From an uncultured Clostridia bacterium (GTDB lineage Bacteria > Bacillota > Clostridia > Oscillospirales > Acutalibacteraceae): a stretch of DNA of 64,000 nt. The stretch lies in contig CAMJMQ010000015.1 in assembly GCA_946407065.1 (NCBI GenBank), forward strand, positions 708-64,707, in the 5' to 3' direction. How positions within the stretch are numbered: position 1 is the first letter of the stretch; the number at the start of each line of letters is the position of its first letter. A program made the position numbers and the translations under genes. Positions 22,507 to 37,726 of the stretch are shown here, piece after piece. The notes under the pieces are model-generated. The model ran no database searches. It saw only the letters and a program-made list of their open reading frames with translations, and was not told the origin of the DNA.

Positions 22507-22560
22507 CAAGTCAATATAAAGAAAAATCGGCAGGAGCGATCCTGCCGATATCTTTTTTAA

Positions 22561-22606
22561 CGGTCATTGCGAAGCCCCTTTAGGGGCTGTGGCAATCTCA
22601 ACCGAT
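22561..22606. repeat. Palindromic intergenic repeat, family 1, copy D
   Basis: GGTCATTGCGAAGCCCCTTTAGGGGCTGTGGCAATCTCAACCG. Confidence 0.75.
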
Positions 22607-22809
22607 TATAAGGAGCTTGATTGAGATACCAACCTCAAAAACTAAGAATTGTCTATTTGATTAATTAAAGTCGCGTTTTGCGTTGTGGTCAAATTGTGGT
22701 CAAAAGCTGTTTTGACCATATTTTTCCTCGAAATCTTTCAGAGCTGTTTTCAGGTTGAATGAAGCCAATTAAAACTGACAGAACCCCGAAAACCCACTGC
22801 TTAAGCCGT

Positions 22810-23118
22810 TTATAAGCAAAAGATAACAGCTCCCGATACCGAAATATCGAGAGCTGTTATGGCGCGCTGGAAGGGACTCGAACCCCCGACCTTTTGGTTC
22901 GTAGTAGGGTCGATGACCTTACCGCTTGCGTCGGTGCTTAACTGAGTAGATGTAGTGTCGCCTTTAGCGATCGTTGCCGTGGTTGCCTGTGCCTGATCGG
23001 GAGTAGCCGAGGAGTGATTACCACAGCGCGTAAATAACATGGCTAAGACGATAGCAAGGATCGCTACGAGCACAACCGCTATGATAGCGATGATTTTCTT
23101 GTTTTTGACTTTCATCAT
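22810..23118 (-). pseudogene. Small membrane-anchored protein whose reading frame runs into the tRNA fragment (probably truncated)
   Basis: N-terminus MMKVKNKKIIAIIAVVLVAILAIVLAMLF is a signal anchor. The C-terminal ~30 codons are the translated tRNA-Arg fragment and flank. Confidence 0.4.
22860..22904 (-). other. tRNA-Arg(ACG) 3' half (att-type remnant, not a complete gene)
   Basis: Reverse complement is CTACGAACCAAAAGGTCGGGGGTTCGAGTCCCTTCCAGCGCGCCA. This reads as anticodon loop CU-ACG-AA, 3' anticodon stem, variable AGGUC, T arm GGGGG-UUCGAGU-CCCUU, acceptor and CCA. The sequence 5' of the loop does not fold as a tRNA. Confidence 0.7.
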
Positions 23119-23203
23119 ATGACGTCCTTTCTGATATTTGCTTGATGTCTTTATATTGTAAGCCTTACACGTGATAGGAAGATAGTTGGGTCAGTGCGTA
23201 ACT

Positions 23204-23647
23204 TTATAACAAGGAGATGATCTTTAATCCTTTTTCCTTTGCGTAGCTTAGCGTATTCGCCGCGCCGCCTGCCCGATATACATAGCTGACAGCAACGCTC
23301 GACCATAACACCATGATCTTGTTCCTTTCGGGGATAGCTCGTTTGTGAAAAAAGTAGGTTTCCTGCTGTTCCTCAAACGGACAGATGATCTCGTCAAACA
23401 GATCGATATACGGCGTGCGGGGGTTGAGATAGGCTGTAACAAGAATGCTTTTAATGCTTGGATATCGCTTTTTCATCTTATGGAGTACTTTGGCACAAGT
23501 CTCATCAAAGTGTCCCATACCGCCGTTGAGAAATATCCTGATCCCCATATGGATCGCGACGATAATAGCTTGTTCGATATACTCTTCTTTAATGAAATAA
23601 CAATCTCTGTTGCCGATGAATAACGCTGTGATCTCTTTTCGTTCCAT
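23204..23647 (-). CDS. SLOG-fold DUF1273/YpsA-like protein, paralog 1
   Basis: Start trimmed to MERKEITALFIGNRDC. The pattern FLNGGMGHFDE ... GGAANTLSYAKEKGLKII matches DUF1273/YpsA-type proteins. Confidence 0.6.
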   Translation of the reverse strand: MERKEITALFIGNRDCYFIKEEYIEQAIIVAIHMGIRIFLNGGMGHFDETCAKVLHKMKKRYPSIKSILVTAYLNPRTPYIDLFDEIICPFEEQQETYFFHKRAIPERNKIMVLWSSVAVSYVYRAGGAANTLSYAKEKGLKIISLL

Positions 23648-23711
23648 ATACTTGAAAATAAAAAAAGCGCAGCCCACGAGGTGAACTACGCCGAAAAACA
23701 CATAGCTCCTT

Positions 23712-23878
23712 GTTGCTACACAATTTCACTTGCCTTGATTACTCTTAGCGCATGAGTTGAGCCTGTGTTTTTGCACAGTTTATCACTCATGCACCAAAAA
23801 ATAACACGAATAAGCATAGACAGGTTGACCTGCCTATACGCAATCAAGAAAGATATTCAAGTGAAATTATGTAGCAAC
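23712..23878. repeat. 21-bp inverted repeats enclosing a 125-bp structured spacer
   Basis: GTTGCTACACAATTTCACTTG (23712-23732) versus CAAGTGAAATTATGTAGCAAC (23858-23878), with one mismatch. The spacer contains further palindromes (GCATGAGT...ACTCATGC, ATAGACAGG..CCTGCCTAT). Confidence 0.7.
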
Positions 23879-23946
23879 TTCATCATACCACAACAGATGG
23901 TGAAATGCAATATTAAAGCATCGAGGGATTAAGATTTCGTATCATT

Positions 23947-24354
23947 CTACCATTCTGATTCCTCTTCATCTTCGTATTCTTTGAATAACTGTTCTTTGGC
24001 TCTACAGTAAAAGTAGCTCATAAATGCCGAGAGCACCTGCTCCCGATTTTCTTGTTCGGTGCCGGCGCCGGCTTTCAGCCGTTCGATCAGCACATCCGAT
24101 AACGTATTGATAATGTTGTTGACAGAGCCGAACATAGACGTCCGCATACCATAATCTCCATTTTCTAATTTATCGGAAATGATCATGATACCTGTACACA
24201 AGAGCTGTGCTTCAGGGTTCGTTGCCAGCAGGCGTTTGGTAGCCCTATATCTGTTCCTGAAACAATGCACATACATAAGATCTGCTACAGTATATTTCAT
24301 GCTGACGGTTTCTTTATCGTTTTCATGACGATTTTGCTGTTCATTCTGTTTCAT
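23947..24354 (-). CDS. Hypothetical protein
   Basis: 135-aa ORF with an acidic C-terminus. No motif recognised. The start could be the internal MKYTVADL. Confidence 0.4.
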   Translation of the reverse strand: MKQNEQQNRHENDKETVSMKYTVADLMYVHCFRNRYRATKRLLATNPEAQLLCTGIMIISDKLENGDYGMRTSMFGSVNNIINTLSDVLIERLKAGAGTEQENREQVLSAFMSYFYCRAKEQLFKEYEDEEESEW

Positions 24355-24566
24355 ATTGCGTATCTCCTGAAGATAATTATTTTACAGATACATTATAACA
24401 CACCTCTCGCGAGATTTCAACGCTTTAAAGCGATGAAATCAAATTATTTCTGTCTTTATGCAACAATAACAGCCGCCTGCGTTTGCAAGCGGCTGTCGGT
24501 GTAGTTTTCCAGAATGGTTATCAATATTTTGTTGGTACAAAAGCTTTTTTTCTCTGCTGAACTTGA

Positions 24567-24821
24567 TTATTCTGCCAGCTCCTTAAATGCCGAAAGATAT
24601 TTTTCAAGGATTCTTTTTGCAACAATATCGATCTTCTCATCTTCGCTCAACTCGAGAAGGGAGCCGTTTTTCTCGATATCGATAACAAGATACTTTGGTT
24701 TATTGTTCTTGAAGATGATCGCCTCACCTTTCTCTTCCGCCGTTTTCGCAACCTGAGAGAAGTTCTGATTTGCCTGCGTCATCGAGAATACCGTGTTTGT
24801 ATCAATATACATCAATATCAC
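24567..24821 (-). CDS. Phd/YefM-type antitoxin-like protein (no toxin partner)
   Basis: FSMTQANQNFSQVAKTAEEKGEAIIFKNNKPKYLVIDIE matches the Phd/YefM N-domain. It is followed by a hairpin terminator (about 24469-24492), not by a toxin gene. Confidence 0.6.
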   Translation of the reverse strand: MILMYIDTNTVFSMTQANQNFSQVAKTAEEKGEAIIFKNNKPKYLVIDIEKNGSLLELSEDEKIDIVAKRILEKYLSAFKELAE

Positions 24822-24868
24822 CTTATAATATAGGATAAATTTTTCGTGGCTATTTAGCTGATCATTTT

Positions 24869-27800
24869 TTACGCCGCAGCGTTATTATTGATGAGCTCAA
24901 TCGTTTGTCGGATTCTGTACCACAACGACAGATCGGTGAACACTTCTACAATGCTGCCTCTGTCGGTAAACGGCGGTTCTTGCAGGACGGACATATCCTT
25001 TAGGACACCGTTGTGGATGATGTATTCGACGATCTGATTGACGAAGTAGATTTGTCTGTCGTCGAGGTTCGCGTCGCTCAGATATTCGGCGAAGGCTTCC
25101 TTTGCCGCCCTCATATCCATACCGACGATCTCGCGCACGAATTCGCCGAGCGGTTTTGTGCCGTACTGTGCCTCATACTCCTCTTTAGAGCCAAGGTCAT
25201 TCCACAGCAATTCCTCCAATCCTGCGATATCCTCCGACGTCAGCGGGACATTCCCTTTCAGCTTGGCGATCGCGCCCTCACCCTGATGTTGGCGAATATA
25301 ATACTCCACCTTTTCACGGTAGTTCTGCAAATCATCACTATCAAGCTCCGACTCGTTCCAGTCGATCGAAAGGATCTCGTCATCAAAATTCGTGTTGTAA
25401 ATATCGCCCCGATAAGGGATGTATTTCATCAGGTTCCTGAGACACTCGCGGATATGCTCAAATTCGTTGATCCCCGCGTTGTCGAAATAGTCCGTATGCA
25501 GGATCTTGTTGATCAGCTCGGACTGCGCCATGATCTCGGGGATATTCGCCACGCTCGCGACGCCCTGCACCTTGCCGAAGAAATCCTTTCTGCGCTTGCC
25601 GTACTTTTTACCGGCAAGATAGCACAGCTCGATCCCGTACATCAGCGCATCGAAGCGCACCGCTTTCGCGTCATCCTCGTCGGGGATGATCAACGGCGCC
25701 AGCTCGTCGCGGATCGTCAACGTGTCCTCATAAGTCAGCGCGGTGTAGCTGTCCTTTGATGAAAACTTCTCGACATAGCGCAAATGCTGTCGGACGGCAA
25801 AATTCTCTCGATTCAGCTCCAGCGTCTTATGTACCATGTCATCCACCAGCGATTCTCTGAACGCGATCAGGTCGGTCGTTTGATACTCCAAATCCTGCAG
25901 CTTGAATACAATCTGCGCTTTCAGGTGGAAGATCGCGCTTTGCAGCGCCGCGTTATTGGCGCTGGGCTTACCCTTGTTCATGCGGAAGAATTCAAAGTTA
26001 CCGCAGAAATCGAAGATATAGAACTTGTCCTTATCCTTGCCGTCAAGCAGGTTTTCGCATAATCTGGTGCCGCGGCCGATCATCTGCCAGAACTTCGCCT
26101 TACTCATGACCTTCTTGAAGAAGACGAGGTTCAGCACCTCGGGCACATCGATACCCGTGTCGAGCATATCGACCGAGATCGCGATCTGCGGCATTTTCTG
26201 CGGATCAGAGAACTCGTCGATCAGGCTTTGCGCATAGTTGACATGGTTGTCGATCACCTTGGCAAAACCGTGTTGCAGATGCGGATACTCCTTATTGAAC
26301 ACCTCGAGGATCTTCTCCGCGTGGTTATGGTTCTTCGCAAAAATAATCGTCTTGCCGATCTTCTGACCATAATCCACCGTCAAGCCGTTGGTCATCAGAA
26401 TATGCAGCACCTCGCGGATGGTATCGGTGTTGAAGATCCATTCATTCAGCGCGCCCGATCCGATGCTGTCGGGCATCTCGCCGTCCTCATCGGTGAAGGT
26501 GCTTTCATATTGCGCCTTATCCTCGTCGGACAGATCATCATAGACGATGCCCTGCTCGATGAATTTCAGTCGGGTTTCCACCGACATGAAGTCGACCAGA
26601 AAACCGTCCTTGACCGCCTGACTCAGCTCGTAGGCATAGGTCGGTTCGTTGTCATTCAGATCGAACACCTCATAGGTGTTTTTCTCTACCTCATCCTTCG
26701 GGGTCGCGGTAAGCCCGACCAGCGGCGCGTCGAAGTAGTTGAAGATATCCTTATACTTGTTATAGATGGAGCGGTGCGCCTCGTCGCAGATCAAGAGATC
26801 GAAGTGACCGCAGGTAAAGAGCTTGCCCTCATCGTCCTTGACCTCGTCGATACAGCCCATCATCGTCTGATAGGTCGAGAAAACGCAGTGCGCCGTATAA
26901 TTATCCTTTTCCTCACACAGATTTGTCACGCTCAGGTCGGGCAGGAGATTGACAAAACTGCGCTTTGCCTGTGTCACGAGCGAGGTGCGGTCGGCGAGGA
27001 ACAGAATATTCTTCACCCAGCCGTGTTGCAACAGAACGTCGCACAGCGAAATGATCGTCCTCGTTTTACCGGAGCCGGTCGCCATGACGAGCAGCGCCTT
27101 GCGGCGATTTTTCTTATCAAAAGCGTCGCACACCGCCTTGACCGCCGCTTCCTGATAATAGCGTCCGGCGATATCGCGGTTGATATAGATATTTTTGAGA
27201 GGTCGGCGCATGGTCTGGAGATTGAAGAACTTTTCCAGATCGCGCTTTGACCAGATTGCCGCTACCCTGCGCTCGGGATAGATTCCGTCGTCGATGCGGG
27301 TATCAAAGCCGTTGGTCAGGAAGATGACCGGACGGCGGTGATACTTTTTCTCGAGCAGATCGGCATAGAGCTTTGCCTGCTGTCTGCCGACGGCGGGATC
27401 CTTACAGGTGCGCTTGGCTTCGATCACCGCGAGCGCCCTGCCGTCGTCGCCGTACAGCACATAATCGGCATAGCCGACCTCGGAGTGGTTCGGCATACCG
27501 GGCAGCTCCACCTCATCCAGCCAGTCCCTGCCCTGCGTCCAGCCCGCGTCGGTCAGCATGGTGTCGATATAGATCTTGCGGGTCGCGAATTCGGTCAGGT
27601 CGATCGGCTTGGGGGTGTAGGTCTGCTGTTGCTCGGATCGGCGAGCGGTCAGCTCCTCGCGCAGGCTTTGGTTCTCCGCTGTCAGCTTTTCGAGATCGAT
27701 CTCTTTTTCGGCGAGCTTGGCGGTCTCCGCCTTCAAGCGTTCATTCTCTGCTTTCAGGCTGTCGATATCGACCTTTTCGCCGTCCGATACCATCGCCATC

Positions 27801-28237
27801 GCCTCCTCGGCGGTCAGCCGGAGCAGTGAGGGGTCAAAGGTATGTTCGCGATACTCCTTGCCGTAGCAGTAGGCGACAAAATCCATGAAGTAAAACAGAT
27901 TCTCTACGCACAGCTCGGCCTGCTGAACGGTGACCCTTTGACCGGTGTGGGCGGAGCGGTTGCCGACCTTGCGGATGAAGTCCATGCGGCGCAGGATATC
28001 GTCGCCCGCGATATCGCGGAACTCCTCGGTAGACATCAGCACCGCGAGCGTTTCGTTATACGGCAGCTTGAGATCCTTGTCGACCGAATACATCCACTTG
28101 ACCGCGAACTCCATCGCCCTGCGGCAGTTGAACGCGCAGGCGTCGGGGTCGATATGTAAGATACGCTCCGCACTGATCGCCACATCCGCAAAGCTCTCAA
28201 ACCCCTTGTCCTGTTTTAAGAAATCAAAGTTGGTCAT
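24869..28237 (-). CDS. hsdR: Type I restriction enzyme R subunit with N-terminal DUF4145-like domain and coiled coil
   Basis: Start taken as MTNFDFLKQ (ATG 28235-28237) behind AGGTGA. Helicase motifs MATGSGKT and LLICDEAHRS. The N-terminus contains RKVGNRSAHTG, followed by a KAENERLKAETAKLAEKE coiled coil. Confidence 0.92.
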   Translation of the reverse strand: MTNFDFLKQDKGFESFADVAISAERILHIDPDACAFNCRRAMEFAVKWMYSVDKDLKLPYNETLAVLMSTEEFRDIAGDDILRRMDFIRKVGNRSAHTGQRVTVQQAELCVENLFYFMDFVAYCYGKEYREHTFDPSLLRLTAEEAMAMVSDGEKVDIDSLKAENERLKAETAKLAEKEIDLEKLTAENQSLREELTARRSEQQQTYTPKPIDLTEFATRKIYIDTMLTDAGWTQGRDWLDEVELPGMPNHSEVGYADYVLYGDDGRALAVIEAKRTCKDPAVGRQQAKLYADLLEKKYHRRPVIFLTNGFDTRIDDGIYPERRVAAIWSKRDLEKFFNLQTMRRPLKNIYINRDIAGRYYQEAAVKAVCDAFDKKNRRKALLVMATGSGKTRTIISLCDVLLQHGWVKNILFLADRTSLVTQAKRSFVNLLPDLSVTNLCEEKDNYTAHCVFSTYQTMMGCIDEVKDDEGKLFTCGHFDLLICDEAHRSIYNKYKDIFNYFDAPLVGLTATPKDEVEKNTYEVFDLNDNEPTYAYELSQAVKDGFLVDFMSVETRLKFIEQGIVYDDLSDEDKAQYESTFTDEDGEMPDSIGSGALNEWIFNTDTIREVLHILMTNGLTVDYGQKIGKTIIFAKNHNHAEKILEVFNKEYPHLQHGFAKVIDNHVNYAQSLIDEFSDPQKMPQIAISVDMLDTGIDVPEVLNLVFFKKVMSKAKFWQMIGRGTRLCENLLDGKDKDKFYIFDFCGNFEFFRMNKGKPSANNAALQSAIFHLKAQIVFKLQDLEYQTTDLIAFRESLVDDMVHKTLELNRENFAVRQHLRYVEKFSSKDSYTALTYEDTLTIRDELAPLIIPDEDDAKAVRFDALMYGIELCYLAGKKYGKRRKDFFGKVQGVASVANIPEIMAQSELINKILHTDYFDNAGINEFEHIRECLRNLMKYIPYRGDIYNTNFDDEILSIDWNESELDSDDLQNYREKVEYYIRQHQGEGAIAKLKGNVPLTSEDIAGLEELLWNDLGSKEEYEAQYGTKPLGEFVREIVGMDMRAAKEAFAEYLSDANLDDRQIYFVNQIVEYIIHNGVLKDMSVLQEPPFTDRGSIVEVFTDLSLWYRIRQTIELINNNAAA

Positions 28238-28250
28238 GTTTATCACCTGA

Positions 28251-29024
28251 TTACTCATTCAATGAATCAATATCTATATATAAATTCTGAAATCTAACTA
28301 TATCATTTTCTTGATATTCAATCTTTAGCCTTTTGAATATCCTTTTTATCAATTTGATATTCCTGTTAAAGGCTGTTCCTCTCCACAAATATTTATCTAT
28401 AACATTTGTTTGGAGATGCTCTTTTATTGAATTAACAGTTTCTTCTCTAAGTGATGAATAGCTTTTAAATGCCTCTTCTATTGTAGGGTGTCTGCCTGCC
28501 GGGGTATTATCATGTATGTGATTATAAAATATATTATAATAGTATTCACCATCAAAATCTTGAATAATCTCTATTCCTCTTTTTAAATGTTTATTTGTAA
28601 TTGTGTGATCGACAAACAAATCCGAATCAAATATGATTCTGCAATATTTTGCCTGCAATTCTAATTGATACGCCTTTACGATAGCGGGTCCGAATACTGT
28701 TGTATTTGAATAATAGTATTTGCCTTTTGTAATTCCTCCCCGAAAGTATAGTCCTGTATCTTCATACAGTTCAAGTTCCGCCAAATGAATTGCTGTCAAT
28801 AATAAAGGTAAGCTATCAGATTCTTGATCGTTAGTTGTTAACACTATACTGTCAGAAAAGAAAGCCATTCTTAGGTTTAGTTTAGCTGAATTATTAAACA
28901 GGTATTGAAAATTATTGACAAAATGAAGAAGCTTATCAACTATCTCAATATTGTTTTCATCTAGAACCAGATTACTAAAGCCTAGTATATCAATAAAGGC
29001 TACATAACCAAATTCGTATTCCAT
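28251..29024 (-). CDS. Class III nucleotidyl-cyclase-like protein (stand-alone, 257 aa), function unknown
   Basis: Start trimmed to MEYEFGYVAFIDILGFS (ATG 29022-29024) behind GGAGG. Ordered motifs FIDILGFS, MAFFSDSIVL, FRGGITKG and VFGPAIVKAYQLE parallel the FxD[IV]xGF[ST] / xD / RxGIxxG / VxGxxVNxAxR pattern of class III cyclases. Strongly AT-rich. Confidence 0.5.
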   Translation of the reverse strand: MEYEFGYVAFIDILGFSNLVLDENNIEIVDKLLHFVNNFQYLFNNSAKLNLRMAFFSDSIVLTTNDQESDSLPLLLTAIHLAELELYEDTGLYFRGGITKGKYYYSNTTVFGPAIVKAYQLELQAKYCRIIFDSDLFVDHTITNKHLKRGIEIIQDFDGEYYYNIFYNHIHDNTPAGRHPTIEEAFKSYSSLREETVNSIKEHLQTNVIDKYLWRGTAFNRNIKLIKRIFKRLKIEYQENDIVRFQNLYIDIDSLNE

Positions 29025-29098
29025 TTTGTCCTCCAAGCTATAATACGAAATATGAAATAACAACTCCAAACATATCGTTTTACTTGATTAATTCTTTC

Positions 29099-29863
29099 TC
29101 ATCTATAAATCGCTAATACATCCAGAGTACGATAATCTTCATCAACCTTAATTGGTTCTATGCTTTTGTTTTTGGAATCAATCGATTTTCTTGCAGCCCT
29201 GTTCAATGACAAAAAGTCTTTTAATGGATCAAAAAACGGTTTCTTTTCCTCAATAACTCTTGATGATACTCTTGCCAATATAGTAACTTCTTCATCCGTA
29301 TCAACAAACTCCTGTATATCAATTGTTAAAAGGTCTTTATTCAGTTTGCTGCACAGCAGTATATCTTCGTTGCTATCAATAATAACTGGAATTTTGGACG
29401 CGTTAGCTCCTGATATTAATGATTCTAAAGCGGATTGCTCATTTTCATCAGCAGTTTGGTTTTGCATTGCAGATATGAGAAAGGGCTTGAACTGTTCTAC
29501 CAGTTGCATCATATCGAAACTTTCCGGAATACTGATATTTGCATCTATTTTTATGATGCTTCCCCTCGGCACCGTTTTTAATTCAAATTCACTTGATTCT
29601 GTAAAATCAAAGTAATCTTCACCTTCTTTTTTCTTTTCTAATAACGCTTCAAATTCATTGCAGTCGTATAAAGCACTTTCAGTAACTTTAGCAGTATACT
29701 TTTTATCTGCTGAGGCATCAGCTTTGATTCCTGAAAAATCTACGCCTATTCCTTTTCCTTTTGCAACCTCATATTCTGAAACTTCAATTTGCTTTTTTCC
29801 TGTGATCAATGATGTGTATTCACCAACAGTTTTTTTGTCATAATATAATATCTTGCCAAACAT
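29099..29863 (-). CDS. Hypothetical acidic protein (254 aa), partner of the cyclase-like gene
   Basis: ATG at 29861-29863 lies 13 nt after the hsdS stop, behind GAAAGGA. No TM segment and no motif I can name. AT-rich. Confidence 0.6.
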   Translation of the reverse strand: MFGKILYYDKKTVGEYTSLITGKKQIEVSEYEVAKGKGIGVDFSGIKADASADKKYTAKVTESALYDCNEFEALLEKKKEGEDYFDFTESSEFELKTVPRGSIIKIDANISIPESFDMMQLVEQFKPFLISAMQNQTADENEQSALESLISGANASKIPVIIDSNEDILLCSKLNKDLLTIDIQEFVDTDEEVTILARVSSRVIEEKKPFFDPLKDFLSLNRAARKSIDSKNKSIEPIKVDEDYRTLDVLAIYR

Positions 29864-29876
29864 TGTTTTGTCCTTT

Positions 29877-31064
29877 CTATCCAAAGTATTCCTGCATTAA
29901 TGATTTTTTGAGGGTTTCGAGCTTGTCGATACTCTGCTGTACGGTTGCCTTTTGCTCTTCGACTTGTGTGACGAAATCTGCGAATTGATTTTGTAAATCA
30001 ACTGGCGGAACAATTATATTAATTTTTTTTAGCATTGCTATAGACAGATACGCTACCGTTGAACCGGCTTGAAAACTATCAATCTGCTTTTTTATATATC
30101 TTGAATCAAAGAGATATGTAAGAAATAAAGGTGTAATAGCTTTATCGAGATTATATAGCCAACTAATCATTCCATCTTGAAAATAAAACTTGTCGTTAGT
30201 TTTTACAATGTAACACTTTCCCAATGTTCCTCGTGAAGTAATGAGAATATCTCCCGTTGTTGGAACTAAACTCTTTCCTAACAATTCTTCATATTTTTTC
30301 TCTGAAATGAAAAGGTCGTTAGTTAAACAATCTGTTTCAATTAGTTCAACCAAATTTGAAACTCTAACGAATGGTACACCAACAGTTGTTTGTTCACTTT
30401 GATATATTCTTTTACTCGAACTGATCGTACATAAATCACTTAGTAAACAAGAAGGGTAATGGTTACAATTCTGTTCAATATCCCCAAACATCTCAACAAA
30501 TCGGGATTTGATAAGCTCGTCCAGTTTATTTAGAGTTTTTATTTGAAGATTGATAATACTGGTGAGCAAATCAATTCGCTTGGCTATTTCCAATTGCTTT
30601 TCTCTTACTGGTAGTTTTACGATAATTCTTTCTAGGTTCTTTCTACTTATTCTAATTCTAGTAGCACCTGCAAGAAAGCTAGTAATTTGTTTATAATAGC
30701 ACGGAGAGTTTAAAAAGCACAAAAGATAACGCTTATCAACAATTTCATCGTTTATTCTAAGAATACTGCAATCAACTGCGGTAATCATCCTCTCGATTTT
30801 AGGAGGGATTATACAAGCCCGTCCCACAGGATCAGGAAGCCTTGACACAAGTATATCTCCCGGATAGACTTCAGTGCAACCGAGACGAAGCATAGTTTCT
30901 TCACTGATGTACTTAGCTCTTTCTTTCTTTTCCAAATACACACCGTTACCGATGTTCCCGGTTTGTATAAGCCTGATACCTGAATCAGATTGATCTTTGG
31001 ATTCAATCCAATCACCATCAGTAAAAAGTGTACAGCATTCTTTAATTGTGATTTCTTTATTCAC
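29877..31064 (-). CDS. hsdS: Type I restriction-modification specificity subunit
   Basis: GTG start overlaps the hsdM stop. Two target-recognition halves are separated by conserved helices (LPVREKQLEIAKRIDLL / PPVDLQNQFADFVTQVEEQK). AT-rich, unlike hsdM and hsdR. Confidence 0.88.
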   Translation of the reverse strand: MNKEITIKECCTLFTDGDWIESKDQSDSGIRLIQTGNIGNGVYLEKKERAKYISEETMLRLGCTEVYPGDILVSRLPDPVGRACIIPPKIERMITAVDCSILRINDEIVDKRYLLCFLNSPCYYKQITSFLAGATRIRISRKNLERIIVKLPVREKQLEIAKRIDLLTSIINLQIKTLNKLDELIKSRFVEMFGDIEQNCNHYPSCLLSDLCTISSSKRIYQSEQTTVGVPFVRVSNLVELIETDCLTNDLFISEKKYEELLGKSLVPTTGDILITSRGTLGKCYIVKTNDKFYFQDGMISWLYNLDKAITPLFLTYLFDSRYIKKQIDSFQAGSTVAYLSIAMLKKINIIVPPVDLQNQFADFVTQVEEQKATVQQSIDKLETLKKSLMQEYFG

Positions 31065-32559
31065 TCAACATCCCCTCCAATTCTTCCAGCCCTTTAGTAA
31101 TCTCTGCTTCGAGCTGTTTGAGGTCGGCGAGGAGCTCGCTGGTGGGCGGGTATTCGACGGGGATATACTCGACCTTTTTGTACTTGTTGATCGAGAGGTC
31201 ATAGCCGTTTTCGGCGATCTCGCTCTTTTCGACAAAGAAAGATTTTTCGGTGCGTTCGCGGTCGGCTTCTTTCTCTCGATTTTGGAATCGCTCGATGATA
31301 TCGGGAATATCGTTCTCCGCTACCGGTGTGCGCTTGTCGTCAAGGCTCAGACCGTCCGCCTGCATATCGTAGAACCACACCTTGTCCGTGCCGCCGTGTC
31401 CGGTCTTGGTGAAGATCAGGATTCCCGTGCTGACGCCCGCGTAGGGCTTGAACACGCCCGAGGGCATGGAGATCACCGCTTCGAGGCGGTTGTCCTCGAT
31501 CAGCGCTTTGCGGATCGCCTGATGTGCCTTTGACGAGCCGAAGAGTACGCCGTCGGGTACGATGCAGGCGCAGCGGCCGCCCACACGCAGCATCCTGAGA
31601 AACAGCGCGATGAAGAGCAGCTCGGTCTTCTTTGTCTTGCAGACCTTCAAGAGATCAGCCGATACCGAGTCATAGTCCAGACTGCCCTTGAACGGCGGAT
31701 TGGCGAGGATCAGGCTGTACTTACCCTTATCCTGATTCTGATCGCTCAGGCTGTCGCGGTATTCGATATAGGGGCTCTCGATGCCGTGGGTCATCATGTT
31801 CATCGCGCCGATACGCAGCATGGTGCGATCCATGTCGTAGCCGAAGAACATGTGATTCATGAAATGATCCTTCTTTTGCTTGTTGTAGAAGATATCTTCC
31901 TTGCGGTACTTTTTCAGATATTCCGCCGTCGTGATCAAAAAGCCCGAGGTACCGCACGCGGGATCGCAGATCACGTCCTCGGGGGTGGGCTGCATGAGCT
32001 GTACCATCATGCTGATGATATGGCGCGGGGTACGGAACTGACCGTTTAAGCCCGACTGTGAGATCTTGCTGAGCAGATATTCGTAGGTATCGCCGCGGAC
32101 GTCGGCGCTCTGATCCTTGCTCATGAGGTCATAGATCACATCGAGCGAGTCGACGACCTTGGAGAGCACGAGCGGAGTGGGGATCATAAAGATCGCGTCA
32201 TCCATGTATTTGGCATAGGCACTGTTCTTGTCCGTGTGAAGGTTCTTGATGAAAGGGAATACGTCATCCTGCATGACGGAGTACATCCTGCCCGCGGGAA
32301 AGTCATGGAACACCGACCACTTGAGCGTTTTGCCGTTGACCTTACGCCCCGCGATATCCACTTCATCCGCAAAGATGCTCTCGAACGGCAGTCCGAGCAT
32401 AGCGCATTCCTTTGCCTTGGTGTTATCCGCGTCGTCGAGGTCGTGAATAAACATCAGGTAGGTGATCTGCTCGATGACCGTCAGAGGGTTGACGATGCCG
32501 CCCGCCGCGAAGATATCCCATAAGCTGTCGATTTTGTTTTTCAGTTCTCCTGTAATCAT
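31057..32559 (-). CDS. hsdM: Type I restriction-modification N6-adenine DNA methyltransferase subunit
   Basis: HsdM N-domain, AdoMet motif DPACGTSGF, catalytic NPPF (LILANPPFKG). Confidence 0.93.
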   Translation of the reverse strand: MITGELKNKIDSLWDIFAAGGIVNPLTVIEQITYLMFIHDLDDADNTKAKECAMLGLPFESIFADEVDIAGRKVNGKTLKWSVFHDFPAGRMYSVMQDDVFPFIKNLHTDKNSAYAKYMDDAIFMIPTPLVLSKVVDSLDVIYDLMSKDQSADVRGDTYEYLLSKISQSGLNGQFRTPRHIISMMVQLMQPTPEDVICDPACGTSGFLITTAEYLKKYRKEDIFYNKQKKDHFMNHMFFGYDMDRTMLRIGAMNMMTHGIESPYIEYRDSLSDQNQDKGKYSLILANPPFKGSLDYDSVSADLLKVCKTKKTELLFIALFLRMLRVGGRCACIVPDGVLFGSSKAHQAIRKALIEDNRLEAVISMPSGVFKPYAGVSTGILIFTKTGHGGTDKVWFYDMQADGLSLDDKRTPVAENDIPDIIERFQNREKEADRERTEKSFFVEKSEIAENGYDLSINKYKKVEYIPVEYPPTSELLADLKQLEAEITKGLEELEGMLSE

Positions 32560-33617
32560 GCTTCATTCTCCCTGTTCCATGTGTAGGAGGTGTAGCGACC
32601 TCCGCTGATTTTGATGATCTCGCCCTTGCTTTGCAGGTCGGCAAGCGTGCGTTGTACCGTGACCTGACTGATATCGGGGCATTGTTCCATGATCTCAGAT
32701 TTGGTGATTCTGCCGAGGGTGCCTTTGATGATCTCACGGATGCGCTCGGGTTTACTGAGGTTCTTTGCCGACAACACCTCTACGCGTGAAGCAAACTCTC
32801 TGTGTGCCGATACCAGTACACCAAGCATATATTGCACAAACGGGGCATAGTCGTTCCTGCCCTCGTGCCAATTCTCGGAGCTGTACTGCAAGGCTTCATA
32901 GTAGGTATCCTTGCTTTGCTCGATGATCTTCTCGATACTGATATATTTGCCGACGATGTAGCCGCTGCGATAGAGCAAAAGCAGGGTGAGCAGTCGGCTC
33001 ATGCGGCCGTTACCGTCGTTGAACGGGTGAATGCAGAGGAAGTCGAGGATGAACATCGGGATCAGCAGCAGAGGATCGGCGTCGGGATTTTGTAAGGCTT
33101 CATTGTACGCGGCGCAGATAAATTCGATCGCGTCGGGCGTTTCCCATGCCGGTACGGGCTGGAACCGAACAAATCGATTGCCCTGTGCGTCTTCTTCGGC
33201 AATCACATTGTCGGCATTTTTGTAGCTGCCGCCGATGGAACTGCCGCTGTATTTGTAGAGGTCGCGGTGGAGCTGGAGGATCATGCCCGGTCTGAGCGGG
33301 ATATAATCATAGTTTTCGTGGATCGTTGCGAGAACATCGCGGTAGCCGGCGATCTCCTGCTCACTGCGATTGCGGGGATTGGTCTTGTCGAGGACGATCT
33401 TCTTGATTCGATCGTCGGAGGTGTAAATGCCCTCGATCTTATTGGACGCCTCGGTGCTTTGTATCTTGGCGATCTCCAACAGCTGAGTGAGGGTGTCGCT
33501 TTCCGCTTCGATATACAGCTTTTGCTGTCCCTTGTATTCGTGGATCTTCGTCAACATCGATACGATATCGGGCTGCAACAGCGCATGGATCCCCTCCACA
33601 TAATTCGGCTTTTTCAT
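32556..33617 (-). CDS. Fic/DOC family protein with C-terminal winged helix
   Basis: Active-site motif HPFNDGNGRMSR. N-terminal SNKIEG fits the (S/T)xxxE(G/N) inhibitory helix. 4-nt overlap with the hsdM start. Confidence 0.88.
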   Translation of the reverse strand: MKKPNYVEGIHALLQPDIVSMLTKIHEYKGQQKLYIEAESDTLTQLLEIAKIQSTEASNKIEGIYTSDDRIKKIVLDKTNPRNRSEQEIAGYRDVLATIHENYDYIPLRPGMILQLHRDLYKYSGSSIGGSYKNADNVIAEEDAQGNRFVRFQPVPAWETPDAIEFICAAYNEALQNPDADPLLLIPMFILDFLCIHPFNDGNGRMSRLLTLLLLYRSGYIVGKYISIEKIIEQSKDTYYEALQYSSENWHEGRNDYAPFVQYMLGVLVSAHREFASRVEVLSAKNLSKPERIREIIKGTLGRITKSEIMEQCPDISQVTVQRTLADLQSKGEIIKISGGRYTSYTWNRENEA

Positions 33618-33672
33618 ATATCATCAATTCCTTCTGTGAGATAGGTGTATAGACAGATTTTGATACAATTCT

Positions 33673-33701
33673 ATTATAGGATTCAATTATTCCATTGTCA
33701 A
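33673..33701 (-). promoter_or_regulatory. Consensus sigma-A promoter of the fic-hsd operon
   Basis: Minus-strand reading is TTGACA(33696-33701)-17 nt-TATAAT(33673-33678), about 55 nt upstream of the fic start. Confidence 0.65.
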
Positions 33702-33836
33702 TATCAATTTTATCATTTTTGGCAATATGATAAAATTGAATTTGTAATGATATACCAACAACCTCTTTTCGGTTAATATTAAGCAACGGCACAGGGAAAT
33801 CCCTGTGCCGCCGTGCCGATAAGACTATAAATATCC

Positions 33837-34928
33837 TCAAATTATGATAATATCGATGGGTGCATCGCCGATAATACTTTCCAAGATTTCGGCGTCACGC
33901 TGTTTACAAAAGAGAAAGCTCTGCTGACCGTTTTGCTCAGCGTTTCGTATAAACGGTCTGAGCTTCACCGTATTCACATTACCGGTACAGATCCAAGCGG
34001 GGGAATCATCAATGAATCCCGTTCCTATAATATAACGATATCTTCCCCGACTGTCTTTTTCCGACGTATCAATATGGTACCGTTCTATGATCCCGCTCTC
34101 TGTTGATGTATCGTCTTTATACAGATCATAAAATTGACTGAGGAAGACATCCCCCGTTGAAAACACATAAAAATATTGATACCCTGCAGTATTGATTCTT
34201 TCATTATAGTAATTATACCCATCAGCAATTTGAGTCAACGCCCCTCCAACATCTTCACATAAAAGGACTGCCGTATCGACTGTCGCGCTGAAATGACGTT
34301 TTAATGCTTCCGGAACAAGTCTTTCGTGTTTTCCTAAGGAACTGACAACCATATTTGTTTTATAGATTGGGATGATCTTGTTCCTTCCAACGAAAAAGCC
34401 TAATAGTCTACTTCCCTGAAAAGCCGTCGATTCATAACTAATTAAACGTTTGAACTCGAGAGCCTCGTAATAATATACTGTATCGCCATAAACCGCATCT
34501 TCAAAACTCGGTTTTGAAAATATTTCGTATGCAATACCGGCTCTATCGAGAAGTGCAAAAAGACAAGCCTGCTGTCTCTTCCTCCTTCGCCGCTTGATGC
34601 TGTAGTGTCTGTCAGTTTCCTCTTCAACATACACTCGGTACTTCATGTAATGAAGCTCACGGGTGAGTTTCTTGCCTTTAAGTGTCAATATATACCCTGC
34701 TGCGCTGTCTGCACTAATCCTTTGTATAAGGCCGCGTCTGAGCAATCTTGAGATATTCTGACGAAAACAGTCATAGCTGATATTCATATGGAGATATAAT
34801 TTATTAGGGATTTCACCTGCACAAAAGAGGATATTAAGTAGACAGTCTGTTCGACTGAGGTACTTATTATCCTGGCTCTTATCAATTCTGTATTTTGGAT
34901 TATTTGCATACTTTGATACAAAAGTCAT
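33837..34928 (-). CDS. Hypothetical protein with N-terminal winged-helix-like region
   Basis: 363 aa, AT-rich. The N-terminal pattern FRQNISRLLRRGLIQRIS...GYILTLKGKKL resembles MarR-type wHTH. The rest is unrecognised. A hairpin terminator follows at about 33790-33815. Confidence 0.45.
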   Translation of the reverse strand: MTFVSKYANNPKYRIDKSQDNKYLSRTDCLLNILFCAGEIPNKLYLHMNISYDCFRQNISRLLRRGLIQRISADSAAGYILTLKGKKLTRELHYMKYRVYVEEETDRHYSIKRRRRKRQQACLFALLDRAGIAYEIFSKPSFEDAVYGDTVYYYEALEFKRLISYESTAFQGSRLLGFFVGRNKIIPIYKTNMVVSSLGKHERLVPEALKRHFSATVDTAVLLCEDVGGALTQIADGYNYYNERINTAGYQYFYVFSTGDVFLSQFYDLYKDDTSTESGIIERYHIDTSEKDSRGRYRYIIGTGFIDDSPAWICTGNVNTVKLRPFIRNAEQNGQQSFLFCKQRDAEILESIIGDAPIDIIII

Positions 34929-35071
34929 AGCTTAATTCTCCTTACTTACTTTGATTTTTGTGGCAAACTTTTTTGCACTTTTGGGCTTAGTAGTTGATAA
35001 AGGTGCCACAAAAAATCCGGATCGAGCTATTCTCGGCTCGCATTAATACTGATTTTGGATATTAATTACTG

Positions 35072-35135
35072 CTGTCACAAACAAATTTACGTTATTTATC
35101 TGTTTGTGACAGCACCGTTAAATCTGTTTGTGACA
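35072..35135. repeat. Three copies of a 12-nt motif (TGTTTGTGACAG), one inverted and two direct: putative operator
   Basis: CTGTCACAAACA at 35072-35083, CTGTTTGTGACAG at 35100-35112, CTGTTTGTGACA at 35124-35135. They lie between the two AT-rich minus-strand genes. Confidence 0.55.
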
Positions 35136-35137
35136 TC

Positions 35138-35800
35138 CTAATTTGATTTTATCATAGATAAAACCTCAATATCGTGTTCGCTATCAACGATATACACCTC
35201 GGTTTTCATTTCACTAGGGTCATCAATTATTTTCGTATAATACGCCGTATTACATGCAGTTGGCCGATCATCCATCAACAAGGTTCCAAGCAGCCCGTTT
35301 AAAATGGTGCTTGAATCTTTATTGTCGTTGTCAATCATGTAATTGACGTTCTTATTTGAAGAAACAAAAAACACCGTTGCATGTTTAAAAAGTTGAATTC
35401 TATTATTGAGGGCGTATTCACTCACAGCTGAAATAACTGCATTGGTGATCGCGTTGTTTCGCTCAAGATTTCTTTTTCTCTTATTCGGGAGAAGAAAAGG
35501 CATTGAAATCTTGTACACCGGAAAAGAAGGAAACTCTTTCAGTTTTTCAATCGATACGCTTAAGAGATCTGCTTCCATTTGAGAGAGCCGACGAGGAACG
35601 CTGGGTATTCCGGTATAGATCCAAAGCATCAGTGCGCGTGTCGCCATATAGACGGATGATGCTGTTTGCAAAGTTTTTTCCGTCGATTCGATCAGGCTCT
35701 CACAATCACTTTCGCGACAAGATACCGCCAGTGTATCCGAGAGAACTATTAAGTCGAGCGCACCTTTTTTGATGTGCTCTATATTGCCGATAGATGTCAT
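35138..35800 (-). CDS. Protein with C-terminal RusA-like (Holliday junction resolvase) motif
   Basis: Start trimmed to MTSIGNIEH behind GGAGG. DNDNKDSSTILNGLLGTLLMDD has exactly the D-x-D-N-x16-D-D spacing of E. coli RusA ([22 protein letters not shown]). ISMPFLLPNKRK resembles the RusA N-terminus. An extra ~95-aa N-extension is present. Confidence 0.45.
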   Translation of the reverse strand: MTSIGNIEHIKKGALDLIVLSDTLAVSCRESDCESLIESTEKTLQTASSVYMATRALMLWIYTGIPSVPRRLSQMEADLLSVSIEKLKEFPSFPVYKISMPFLLPNKRKRNLERNNAITNAVISAVSEYALNNRIQLFKHATVFFVSSNKNVNYMIDNDNKDSSTILNGLLGTLLMDDRPTACNTAYYTKIIDDPSEMKTEVYIVDSEHDIEVLSMIKSN

Positions 35801-36063
35801 AATAAAGAACCTCCAATATAAAATAAGATGATGGACATGGCGCCCCGCCATGCCGATTTTTGCTTCTGTTGTCTAACGAGCGAATCTTATCGCCGTTGTT
35901 TTACGTGAAGTGCTTCATGTTTCATCACATCCTTTTTGTCAATAGACAAGATATATAAATTGTTATCTGCATTTTTAGTTAAAAATACAGTGGTACCATT
36001 CATTAAAATATGTTATACTATTATTCAACCAATTATATTTTTGTTGAATAAAGGAAGGTGATC

Positions 36064-37434: not shown

Positions 37435-37494
37435 GATATGCAATGAAACTGTCAATGACAAACACGATTTGAGTATTGTAAGGAGAATAAATAG

Positions 37495-37719
37495 ATGGAA
37501 ATCGCAAAAGTATTTCAATACGCCAACTGTCAAGCGGTCAATCTGCCTGACAGATACAAATTCACTTGTGATGAGGTTGCTGTACAGCAATTAGGCTCTT
37601 CGCTGATACTGACTCCAAAGGACAAAGCCCATAACAGTCTTTTATTTGGCGAAGCGCGCAGAACAAAGGATAATAAGCACATCTCAGATTCAACTATATT
37701 GAAGCCGGAAAGGGGATAA
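37495..37719 (+). CDS. AbrB/SpoVT-fold VapB-like antitoxin (no toxin partner)
   Basis: MEIAKVFQYANCQAVNLPDRYKFTCDEVAVQQLGSSLILTP matches the swapped-hairpin antitoxin N-domain. The following gene is not a PIN or other toxin. Confidence 0.6.
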   Translation: MEIAKVFQYANCQAVNLPDRYKFTCDEVAVQQLGSSLILTPKDKAHNSLLFGEARRTKDNKHISDSTILKPERG

Positions 37720-37726
37720 AGAATAC

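What the first reader, a model, noticed from the sequence alone, without database searches (positions are those of the whole stretch)
28251..29863. Cyclase-like gene plus unrecognisable partner between hsdS and hsdR (the PrrC position)
Seen in sequence:
- fic, hsdM, hsdS, orf254, orf257 and hsdR form one minus-strand operon behind a consensus promoter. Junctions are 4- to 8-nt overlaps or 13-nt gaps, and each inserted gene has its own RBS.
- The block about 28240-31060 (hsdS plus the two inserts) is visibly AT-rich, while the flanking hsdM and hsdR are GC-rich.
- Orf257 carries, in order, FIDILGFS, FFSDSIVL, FRGGITKG and VFGPAIVKAYQLE.
- Orf254 is acidic, has no TM segment, and has no cNMP-binding, TIR, nuclease or protease motif that I can see.

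Established knowledge:
- FxD[IV]xGF[ST] ... D ... RxGIxxG ... VxGxxVNxAxR is the class III nucleotidyl cyclase core.
- Pycsar PycC enzymes are class III-type cyclases paired with cNMP-sensing effectors.
- The anticodon nuclease PrrC sits between hsdS and hsdR of EcoprrI and fires when the R-M enzyme is inhibited.

Inference: this may be a signalling or abortive-infection passenger module guarded by, or guarding, the type I enzyme. Its effector would not be a canonical Pycsar effector.
Basis: partly seen in the sequence, partly recalled or inferred. Interest (0 to 1): 0.85.

Follow-up and report, generated by a model that had tools for sequence, protein, structure and literature searches.

The report
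Two independent passenger genes in hsd operon
Between the specificity and nuclease genes of a restriction operon sit two separately mobile passenger genes, a DUF6414 protein and an uncharacterised enzyme with a nucleotide-cyclase fold, which look like stacked candidate phage-defence genes and not a cyclase–effector signalling pair.

Summary
hsdS plus the two inserts are 30–35% GC; the flanking genes are 53–54%.

orf257 has a class III cyclase fold (pLDDT 92.6; all top-50 PDB matches are class III cyclases). Both metal aspartates and the phosphate arginine are conserved. The cyclase Asn/Arg transition-state pair is missing across the family. It matches no Pfam, NCBIfam or PADLOC model, although the family is very large (10,821 50%-identity clusters at E≤1e-10) and consists almost entirely of stand-alone ~250-aa proteins.

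orf254 is recognisable: it is DUF6414, the domain named in the Dodola defence system.

The two genes are not a dedicated pair:
- Homologues of each sit alone between hsdS and hsdR.
- Homologues also sit there with other partners: Abi_alpha, NERD, AbiH or Trypsin_2 with DUF6414, and SLFN_AlbA_2 with the cyclase-fold gene.
- An operon 93–95% identical in fic-hsdM and hsdR carries Abi_alpha in place of the cyclase-fold gene.
- The pairing recurs only once more, in a different cyclase subclade.

Best reading: the hsdS–hsdR slot is a swappable, AT-rich cargo cassette holding two independent candidate defence genes. A Pycsar-like reading is not supported. Biochemical function remains untested.

The parts
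33673..33701 (-). Operon promoter, TTGACA-17-TATAAT (12 of 12), upstream of fic
   Evidence: A terminator-like hairpin lies just upstream at 33784-33813.
32556..33617 (-). fic (SoFic-like), first gene of the operon
   Evidence: PADLOC SoFic E 4.1e-38 and Pfam Fic E 2.6e-14. It is conserved at the head of related operons L005, L179 and L183.
31057..32559 (-). hsdM, the conserved left flank of the variable cassette
   Evidence: PADLOC MTase_I E 1.7e-182. The stretch 31067-33737 is 93-95% nt identical to L179/L180.
28252..31066 (-). AT-rich variable cassette (hsdS plus two passenger genes) between conserved hsdM and hsdR
   Evidence: GC is 30-35% against 53-54% in the flanks. Identity to L179/L180 breaks at 31067 and at 28252. 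The same roughly 20-point GC drop is seen in related operons.
29877..31064 (-). hsdS specificity subunit
   Evidence: PADLOC Specificity_I E 1.5e-53 and Pfam Methylase_S. It is essentially unalignable to the hsdS of L179/L180, apart from about 55 nt (29877-29931) at its 3' end, next to orf254.
29099..29863 (-). orf254, a DUF6414-family protein (the domain reported for the Dodola system); passenger 1
   Evidence: Pfam PF19952 E 1.1e-14, full length. There is no PADLOC hit. AF2 pLDDT is 76 with no significant fold match. Homologues sit after hsdS in about 12 lineages.
29025..29098 (-). 74-nt spacer carrying the GGAGG ribosome-binding site of orf257
28251..29024 (-). orf257, a stand-alone protein with a class III-cyclase fold plus a C-terminal helical domain; passenger 2
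   Evidence: AF2 pLDDT 92.6. Foldseek against PDB: all top-50 matches are class III cyclases, E 3.6e-6. The conserved set is D12, S57-D58, R95, E122, R129, D158, K211 and W214. There is no Pfam, NCBIfam or PADLOC match.
24869..28258 (-). hsdR (DUF4145 N-terminal domain, helicase, EcoEI_R_C), the conserved right flank
   Evidence: PADLOC REase_I E 3.9e-157. It is 93% nt identical to L180 over 24869-28252.

Best explanation
In this family of fic-hsdM-hsdS-hsdR operons, the stretch from the hsdS start to the hsdR start is a swappable low-GC cassette, probably exchanged by recombination in the conserved hsdM and hsdR flanks. Besides a variable hsdS, it carries a changing assortment of single-gene passengers. 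In this window two independent passengers are stacked there and co-transcribed with the restriction enzyme.

(1) orf254 is a DUF6414 protein, the domain reported for one component of the Dodola system. In other lineages it sits alone in the same slot.

(2) orf257 belongs to a very large, uncharacterised family of stand-alone ~250-aa proteins. It has a class III-cyclase (palm) fold and keeps the two metal-binding aspartates and the triphosphate-binding arginine. It has replaced the cyclase Asn/Arg transition-state pair with its own invariant set (E122, R129, D158, K211, W214).

Inferred, not shown:
- Both genes are accessory anti-phage or abortive-infection genes that back up restriction.
- orf257 is an active Mg2+/NTP-dependent nucleotidyltransferase that acts without a dedicated neighbouring effector. 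Either its reaction or product is itself the output, or the receptor is encoded elsewhere.
For: Shown:
- Operon anatomy and promoter.
- Mosaic structure. L179/L180 are 93-95% nt identical to the window across fic-hsdM and hsdR, with breakpoints at 31067 and 28252. In between, only DUF6414 aligns (74%), and Abi_alpha replaces the cyclase-fold gene.
- The cassette GC drop of about 20 points is general.
- The cyclase-fold gene sits alone directly after hsdS in five lineages (P0002, P0008, P0018, P0032, L021), followed directly by hsdR in P0002, P0018 and P0032. It sits with SLFN_AlbA_2 in the P0007 lineage.
- DUF6414 sits alone between hsdS and hsdR in at least 6 lineages. Elsewhere it is followed by NERD, AbiH, Abi_alpha, Trypsin_2, SIR2, KAP NTPase, AAA_21 or HD-CE proteins.
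- No co-occurrence in 78 + 80 surveyed loci.
- Incongruent relationships. The two DUF6414-paired cyclase genes are 49% identical. Each is closer to unpaired relatives: P0001 to P0002 at 56%, and P0005 to P0008/P0007 at 76% and 72%.
- Type I R-M genes are the only recurrent defence neighbours of the wider cyclase-fold family: hsdM in 7 of 78 loci, hsdR and hsdS in 6 each.
- The family also occurs in 41 IMG/VR contigs and next to integrases.
- Fold and residue conservation.
- Family size and single-domain architecture.
Against: - No functional data exist for either family, so the defence role rests on guilt by embedding.
- The same pairing arose in two different cyclase subclades (window and L232, the latter with an 8-nt gap). 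That could hint at functional synergy.
- DUF6414 is very often followed closely (0-18 nt) by an effector-like gene, which also fits a sensor-plus-swappable-effector design.
- Most distant cyclase-fold homologues are not next to recognisable defence genes, so the family may have a non-defence role.
- Catalytic activity is inferred from conserved residues only.
Confidence: 0.55

Rival explanations
1. Two-gene modular system. DUF6414 is a conserved sensor or adaptor that works with whichever effector gene lies directly downstream (SIR2, NERD nuclease, Trypsin_2 protease, Abi_alpha, the ClpB-like partner in Dodola). Here the cyclase-fold protein occupies that effector slot, for example as an NTP-consuming or toxic-nucleotide-producing enzyme released on infection.
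For: - DUF6414 is followed on the same strand, usually within 0-18 nt, by effector-like proteins in many lineages: SIR2_2 (22 loci), NERD (16 loci), Trypsin_2, Abi_alpha and AbiH.
- Dodola is described as DUF6414 plus a ClpB-like protein.
- The DUF6414-cyclase pairing was assembled in two separate cyclase subclades.
Against: - DUF6414 is followed directly by hsdR, with no extra gene, in at least 6 lineages.
- The cyclase-fold gene occurs alone in the same slot in 5 lineages, and without DUF6414 in all 78 diverse loci.
- Several of the downstream genes are families annotated as abortive-infection proteins (AbiH, Abi_alpha); from my own knowledge, AbiH acts alone.
- In the window the two genes are 74 nt apart, and orf257 has its own strong ribosome-binding site.
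Confidence: 0.25
2. A Pycsar-like or PrrC-like guard. orf257 is a true cyclase that makes a cyclic mononucleotide when the type I enzyme is inhibited, and orf254 is a non-canonical cNMP-activated effector.
For: - Cyclase fold and metal aspartates.
- Position between hsdS and hsdR, as for PrrC.
- Type I R-M genes are the only recurrent neighbours of the family.
Against: - No PADLOC PycC or other hit, even at E<=10.
- The class III Asn/Arg pair is absent: positions 116 and 120 are I/V in 83% of sequences and variable, respectively.
- orf254 has no cNMP-binding, TIR or TM domain and is DUF6414.
- The two genes are not conserved neighbours.
- In the species survey (78 loci), more than 90% of the cyclase-fold homologues, most of them distant, lie outside type I operons.
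Confidence: 0.07
3. The passengers are not defence genes. They are selfish or regulatory cargo, for example addiction or restriction-alleviation factors, or modulators of HsdR assembly. Alternatively they are decaying hitchhikers carried along with hsdS swaps.
For: - Most distant cyclase-fold homologues lack recognisable defence neighbours.
- Neighbours include integrases and ParA-like ATPases.
- No experimental data exist.
Against: - Both ORFs are intact and have their own ribosome-binding sites.
- Both families have strongly conserved polar residues over deep divergence.
- The other occupants of the same slot are families annotated as abortive-infection or defence-type proteins: AbiH, Abi_alpha, NERD and SLFN_AlbA_2.
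- Published surveys find that genes embedded in type I R-M are frequently defence genes.
Confidence: 0.13

Closest known systems
Defence genes embedded in type I R-M operons: PrrC in EcoprrI, TgvAB in V. cholerae VPI-2, and the PADLOC 'PDC' candidates of Payne et al. 2024
   Same: The genes are nested between hsd genes and co-oriented with them. The hsdS-hsdR slot is the PrrC position. The cargo is variable and the embedding recurs in many genomes.
   Different: Neither protein matches PrrC, TgvAB or any HEC/PDC or other PADLOC v2 model, even at E<=10. There is no ABC-ATPase/anticodon-nuclease or GmrSD architecture. Here two unrelated single-gene passengers are stacked.
Class III nucleotidyl cyclases (Pfam PF00211; e.g. 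CyaB 3r5g, Cya2 2w01, Rv1625c 7yz9)
   Same: - Same fold: Foldseek probability 1.0, TM up to 0.67 on the target, and all top-50 hits.
- The two metal aspartates and the RxGxxxG arginine are conserved.
   Different: - The transition-state Asn and Arg are not conserved.
- PF00211 is matched only sub-threshold (best E 0.06, 7 of 50 members).
- There is an extra C-terminal helical domain with an invariant KYxW motif.
- Family-specific invariant residues are R129 and D158.
Pycsar (PycC cyclase plus a cNMP-activated TM or TIR effector)
   Same: A class III-type cyclase fold in a defence context, with an adjacent gene.
   Different: There is no PycC model hit. The neighbour lacks cNMP-binding, TM and TIR domains. 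The neighbour is not conserved.
Panoptes (mCpol minimal Cas10-like palm cyclase plus 2TM-beta effector; PMC12657230)
   Same: A small stand-alone palm-domain nucleotide enzyme used in immunity. This is a precedent for constitutive or inverted signalling logic.
   Different: - orf257 resembles class III cyclases structurally: no Cas10 or mCpol (9NWN) entry appears among the top 50 matches.
- No 2TM-beta partner was seen among its neighbours.
- No CBASS association was seen in the neighbour scan.
Dodola (DUF6414 protein plus ClpB-like protein; Millman et al. 2022, as summarised in bioRxiv 10.1101/2024.10.26.620412)
   Same: orf254 carries the DUF6414 domain over its full length and lies in a defence context.
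   Different: There is no ClpB-like gene among the operon genes scanned. The PADLOC scan, whose library I take from my own knowledge to include the Dodola models, gave no hit for orf254 or its relatives. In this clade the downstream gene is variable or absent.

Membership tests
Class III nucleotidyl cyclase | Cyclase homology domain (palm) fold | tested here: met
   AF2 pLDDT 92.6. Foldseek against PDB: 72 hits at E<=1e-3, and all top-50 are class III cyclases.
Class III nucleotidyl cyclase | Two metal-binding aspartates and the phosphate-binding Arg of RxGxxxG | tested here: met
   D12 100%, D58 100% and R95 98% over 255 homologues. They align with cyclase motifs.
Class III nucleotidyl cyclase | Transition-state Asn and Arg (NxxxR motif) | tested here: not met
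   The alignment to 3mr7 puts V116 and Q120 at these positions. Family-wide, position 116 is I45/V38/N12 and position 120 is E28/K16/Q15/R13.
Class III nucleotidyl cyclase | Matches Pfam PF00211 above the gathering score | tested here: not met
   There is no hit for orf257. Among 50 family members, 7 hit with a best E of 0.06.
Class III nucleotidyl cyclase | Cyclase activity (NTP to cNMP + PPi) as a dimer | not testable with these tools
   This needs enzyme assays with LC-MS and determination of the oligomeric state.
Pycsar | PycC-type cyclase recognised by Pycsar models | tested here: not met
   PADLOC v2.0.0 gives 0 families at E<=10.
Pycsar | Adjacent effector with a cNMP-binding domain fused to a TM or TIR domain | tested here: not met
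   orf254 is DUF6414 with no other Pfam domain and no hydrophobic segment. It is not a conserved neighbour.
PrrC-type R-M-guarded anticodon nuclease | Gene located between hsdS and hsdR of a type I operon | tested here: met
   The position recurs in L005, L009, L183, L228 and other loci.
PrrC-type R-M-guarded anticodon nuclease | ABC-ATPase N-terminal domain plus C-terminal anticodon nuclease domain | tested here: not met
   Neither protein has a PADLOC or Pfam match of that kind.
PrrC-type R-M-guarded anticodon nuclease | Physical association with, and activation through, the type I enzyme | not testable with these tools
   This needs co-purification and anti-restriction trigger experiments.
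Dodola | DUF6414-domain component | tested here: met
   PF19952 E 1.1e-14, profile positions 3-283 of 283. However, the PADLOC scan gave no hit of any kind for orf254.
Dodola | Adjacent ClpB-like partner gene | tested here: not met
   The operon neighbours are hsdS and orf257/hsdR. In relatives the downstream genes are SIR2, NERD, Abi_alpha, AbiH, Trypsin_2 and others, or none.
Panoptes (mCpol-2TMbeta) | Cas10-like palm (mCpol) with a 2TM-beta effector neighbour | tested here: not met
   All top structural matches are class III cyclases, not Cas10 or mCpol. The neighbour has no TM segment.
Defence genes embedded in type I R-M (guilt-by-embedding candidates) | Recurrent nesting of the family inside type I R-M operons in unrelated genomes | tested here: met
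   Cyclase-fold family: 8 lineages of close homologues, plus 7 of 78 diverse loci. DUF6414: about 12 lineages, plus a second type I family in L234.
Defence genes embedded in type I R-M (guilt-by-embedding candidates) | Demonstrated anti-phage activity | not testable with these tools
   This needs phage challenge experiments.

The most novel reading that the evidence does not exclude
The orf257 family is a previously unrecognised, very widespread class of stand-alone palm-domain immune enzymes. It has a class III cyclase scaffold with a re-invented active site (E122, R129, D158, K211, W214). It would make a new nucleotide product, or destroy NTPs, without a dedicated neighbouring effector. It can be plugged in solo or behind sensors such as DUF6414 or SLFN/AlbA_2 inside restriction operons. 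DUF6414 would then be a general sensor/adaptor with swappable effectors.
Probability: 0.25. Interest if true: 0.8.

Novelty: new variant of a known kind. Interest (0 to 1): 0.5.

Why it matters
Genes nested in type I R-M operons are a proven source of new defence systems (PrrC, TgvAB, the PADLOC embedded candidates).

This locus points to a very large protein family. It has over 10,000 50%-identity clusters, no Pfam, NCBIfam or PADLOC model, and a cyclase scaffold with an altered catalytic set. If the family is active, it would add a new nucleotide-based chemistry to bacterial immunity, one that apparently needs no linked effector.

The locus also shows concretely how hsdS and its cargo travel together as a low-GC cassette between conserved hsdM and hsdR. 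That bears on how defence repertoires and restriction specificities are reshuffled in gut Firmicutes.

Finally, the variable downstream partners of DUF6414 give a testable handle on the unexplained Dodola component.

Tried and rejected
- Pycsar or another named system: PADLOC at E<=0.01 and at E<=10 gave nothing for either protein. Rejected.
- NCBIfam: no meaningful hit.
- PHROGs: only unknown-function families, phrog_23933 at E 5e-30 for orf257 and phrog_9699 at E 2e-4 for orf254.
- PDB sequence searches, single sequence and profile: nothing significant. There were only sub-threshold cyclase matches for A1 (E 0.22-2.4) and none for A2.
- Fold search for orf254 against PDB and BFVD: no hit below E 0.07. 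Only weak OB-fold-like hints appeared (Asp/Asn-tRNA synthetase, telomere-end binding, SSB), and I do not rely on them.
- tblastn against 50,697 GenBank phage records: no match for either protein. IMG/VR did hold 41 cyclase-fold loci and 1 DUF6414 locus.
- Domain fusions as a Rosetta stone: the few longer family members (P0161, P0220, P0266, P0254, P0180, P0082, P0116) have no Pfam domain in their extensions.
- Search for a conserved neighbour of the wider cyclase-fold family: only hsdM/R/S, integrases and ParA-like ATPases recur.
The gene upstream of P0008 is hsdS.
- Rfam and tRNA scans of the window: nothing.
- Literature searches for a described cyclase-like embedded defence gene: nothing found.
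- I could not inspect model coordinates, so the spatial relation of K211/W214/R129/D158 to the metal site is unknown.
Full report
1. The observation

Six minus-strand ORFs lie head to tail: fic (32556-33617), hsdM (31057-32559), hsdS (29877-31064), orf254 (29099-29863), orf257 (28251-29024) and hsdR (24869-28258). PADLOC and Pfam identify the four flanking genes:
- fic: SoFic, E 4e-38.
- hsdM: type I methyltransferase, E 1.7e-182.
- hsdS: specificity subunit, E 1.5e-53.
- hsdR: type I restriction subunit, E 3.9e-157.

A perfect sigma-70 consensus (TTGACA-17-TATAAT) lies at 33701-33673, just after a terminator-like hairpin.

Junctions are a 4-nt overlap (fic/hsdM), an 8-nt overlap (hsdM/hsdS), and a 13-nt gap before orf254 with an AGGA site. 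At orf257/hsdR there is either an 8-nt overlap or a 13-nt gap, depending on the hsdR start.

hsdS, orf254 and orf257 are 34.8, 34.0 and 30.2% GC. fic, hsdM and hsdR are 52.5-54.0%.

The four quoted motifs are at residues 10, 55, 94 and 110 of orf257. orf254 has pI 4.67 and no hydrophobic segment.

2. orf257

It matches nothing in Pfam, NCBIfam or PADLOC, even at E<=10. Its only clear match is an unknown-function PHROG (phrog_23933, E 5e-30).

With a 50-sequence alignment (A1), AlphaFold2 gives a confident model (pLDDT 92.6, pTM 0.89). Foldseek against PDB returns 72 hits at E<=1e-3. The top 50 are all class III adenylyl or guanylyl cyclase catalytic domains (best 3r5g, E 3.6e-6; TM up to 0.67 on the target over about 175-198 columns). 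The last ~75 residues form an extra helical domain.

At sequence level only sub-threshold cyclase matches appear: PF00211 in 7 of 50 members with a best E of 0.06, and PDB cyclases at E 0.22-2.4. These align the expected motifs.

Over 255 diverse homologues the following are conserved:
- The metal aspartates D12 and D58, both 100%.
- S57 (100%) and the phosphate arginine R95 (98%).
- G112 (99%) and E122 (97%).
- A family-specific set: R129 (99%), D158 (96%), K211 (99%) and W214 (96%).

The positions that align with the class III transition-state Asn and Arg are V116 and Q120 in orf257. Family-wide they are I/V in 83% of sequences and variable, respectively.

The protein is therefore a cyclase-fold, probably NTP- and metal-binding enzyme. 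It does not pass the catalytic-residue test for a canonical class III cyclase.

The family is very large. There are 16,544 50%-identity clusters at E<=1e-3, 10,821 at E<=1e-10 and 2,967 at E<=1e-30. Nearly all top hits are 230-290 aa stand-alone proteins. The few longer members carry no recognisable extra domain.

3. orf254

It is a full-length DUF6414 (PF19952, E 1.1e-14). One preprint summarises the Dodola defence system as a DUF6414 protein plus a ClpB-like protein. [quoted passage not shown]

The PADLOC scan gave no hit for orf254 or its relatives; from my own knowledge that library includes the Dodola models. No ClpB-like gene is in the operon.

The AF2 model is moderate (pLDDT 76, residues 27-59 disordered). 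It has no significant match in PDB or BFVD, and the profile finds nothing in PDB.

4. Are the two genes a pair?

The exact pair is found only in near-identical copies of this operon (L001-L004) and once more in L232. There a 73%-identical DUF6414 and a 50%-identical cyclase-fold gene are 8 nt apart.

Everything else argues for independence.

(a) Cyclase-fold homologues sit directly after hsdS, with no DUF6414, in five lineages:
- P0002 (56% identity), followed directly by hsdR.
- P0008 (48%); its contig ends before the downstream gene.
- P0018 (43%), followed directly by hsdR.
- P0032 (43%), followed directly by hsdR.
- L021 (39%); hsdR lies downstream after two small predicted ORFs.

In the P0007 lineage (49%) the upstream partner is an SLFN_AlbA_2 protein instead.

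(b) DUF6414 homologues sit alone between hsdS and hsdR in at least six lineages. In other lineages they are followed by:
- NERD (375 aa, inside hsd operons).
- AbiH (0-nt gap).
- Abi_alpha.
- Trypsin_2, in a different type I family with RhuM.
- SIR2_2 (22 loci outside hsd operons).
- KAP NTPase, AAA_21 ATPases, or an HD-CE/HATPase protein.

(c) In 78 loci from different GTDB species, no cyclase-fold gene has a DUF6414 neighbour. In 80 metagenome DUF6414 loci, none has a cyclase-fold neighbour.

(d) Relationships are incongruent:
- The window's cyclase-fold protein is closest to the unpaired P0002/P0003 (56 and 55%).
- The L232 one is closest to the unpaired P0008 (76%) and the SLFN-paired P0007 (72%).
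- The window's DUF6414 is equally close (74%) to the Abi_alpha-partnered P0122 and the cyclase-partnered P0124.

5. The cassette

blastn shows that L179/L180 are 93-95% identical to the window over 31067-33737 (fic-hsdM) and 24869-28252 (hsdR). Between those breakpoints only DUF6414 aligns (74%). hsdS is essentially unalignable apart from a short stretch at its 3' end, and Abi_alpha replaces orf257.

In six related operons with hsdM/hsdR GC of 48-60%, hsdS and the passengers are 27-43% GC.

So the block from the hsdS start to the hsdR start is a low-GC variable cassette between conserved recombination flanks. Restriction specificity and cargo are reshuffled together.

The operon lies on an ~18-kb island between an integrase fragment (21712-22506) and an integrase gene (38161-39597), next to purF-carAB.

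6. Wider context of the cyclase-fold family

The only recurrent neighbours are hsdM (7 of 78 loci), hsdR and hsdS (6 each), integrases (6) and ParA-like ATPases (3). A PADLOC scan of 140 immediate neighbours finds type I methyltransferase and specificity models as the dominant hits.

Forty-one IMG/VR contigs carry the family, although GenBank phage records do not.

This is the profile of a mobile, single-gene accessory function with a specific affinity for type I R-M operons.

7. Mechanism

Shown:
- Operon membership.
- Cassette mobility.
- Independent assortment of the two genes.
- Cyclase fold with a conserved metal/triphosphate half-site and a family-specific invariant set.

Inferred:
- Both genes are accessory defence genes that back up restriction. 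This rests on guilt by embedding, whose track record is documented. The other occupants of the slot are annotated as Abi- or defence-type proteins, which points the same way.
- orf257 is an active nucleotidyltransferase acting without a dedicated linked effector.

I put 0.55 on this stacked-independent-passengers reading. I put 0.25 on a modular DUF6414-sensor/swappable-effector design in which orf257 is the effector.

8. Comparison and novelty

The arrangement works like known embedded defences (PrrC, TgvAB, PADLOC PDC candidates). Neither protein belongs to any of those families. orf257 fails two class III cyclase membership tests (Asn/Arg pair, PF00211 threshold) and both Pycsar tests. orf254 meets the DUF6414 criterion for Dodola but lacks the ClpB-like partner.

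Panoptes mCpol is a functional precedent for a small stand-alone palm cyclase in immunity. It is Cas10-like and has a 2TM-beta partner, which is not the case here.

I found no paper describing the orf257 family.

I rate this a new variant of a known kind: new passenger families in a known type of hotspot. Interest is moderate. The specific two-gene signalling hypothesis is not supported. The uncharacterised, very widespread cyclase-fold family and the DUF6414 partner diversity are worth experimental follow-up.

Noticed in passing
window 32556-33617 (-): The first gene of the operon is a SoFic-like Fic protein (PADLOC SoFic E 4e-38) with a C-terminal wHTH. The same fic-hsdM arrangement heads related operons L005, L114, L118, L124, L179 and L183. 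The operon therefore stacks SoFic, type I R-M and two passengers.
   Followed up: partly
window 21712-39597: The operon sits on an ~18-kb island next to purF-carA-carB (14778-20492). The island is bounded by an integrase fragment (21712-22506) and a 478-aa integrase (38161-39597). It also carries a YpsA/SLOG-like gene (23204-23701), a wHTH protein (33837-34928) and an orphan C5 DNA methyltransferase (36058-37434).
   Followed up: partly
window 24567-24821 (-): A Phd/YefM-type antitoxin gene lies 47 nt downstream of hsdR on the same strand. No obvious toxin gene is next to it; the 135-aa ORF at 23947-24354 has no Pfam match.
   Followed up: no
window 39777-40103: A perfect 154-nt tandem repeat (2 full copies plus 19 nt of a third) lies immediately after the integrase gene. 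It may be an attachment-site-related repeat or an assembly artefact.
   Followed up: no
L137-L156 (e.g. L139 595-2857): A DUF6414 gene is followed after 10-15 nt by a 493-504-aa SIR2_2 protein (ThsA/Dsr1/LmuA-like by PADLOC). This recurs in about 22 gut-metagenome loci outside any hsd operon and is a candidate two-gene system.
   Followed up: partly
L234-L237 (e.g. L234 4416-14759): A different type I R-M family carries a string of embedded genes: hsdM, RhuM, DUF6414, Trypsin_2 protease, hsdS, a HAD-like gene, a 276-aa gene, then hsdR. DUF6414 embedding is therefore not limited to one operon family.
   Followed up: partly
L106, L111, L114, L117: Related operons contain a tyrosine recombinase (322 aa) and extra hsdS copies upstream of the expressed hsdS. 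This looks like a phase-variable hsdS shufflon alongside the DUF6414-NERD cargo.
   Followed up: no
L179-L181 (e.g. L179 3368-4633) and L228 1984-2487: Further unannotated genes are embedded between hsdM and hsdS (410-421 aa and 167 aa, no Pfam domain). In L015 a PHP+AAA_15 812-aa protein follows hsdR; from my own knowledge this domain combination resembles the Ppl defence protein.
   Followed up: no
window 24869-28258 (-), residues 30-120 of HsdR: HsdR carries an N-terminal DUF4145 domain followed by a coiled coil, ahead of the nuclease/helicase core. It also matches PADLOC PDC-M16A over residues 8-231.
   Followed up: no
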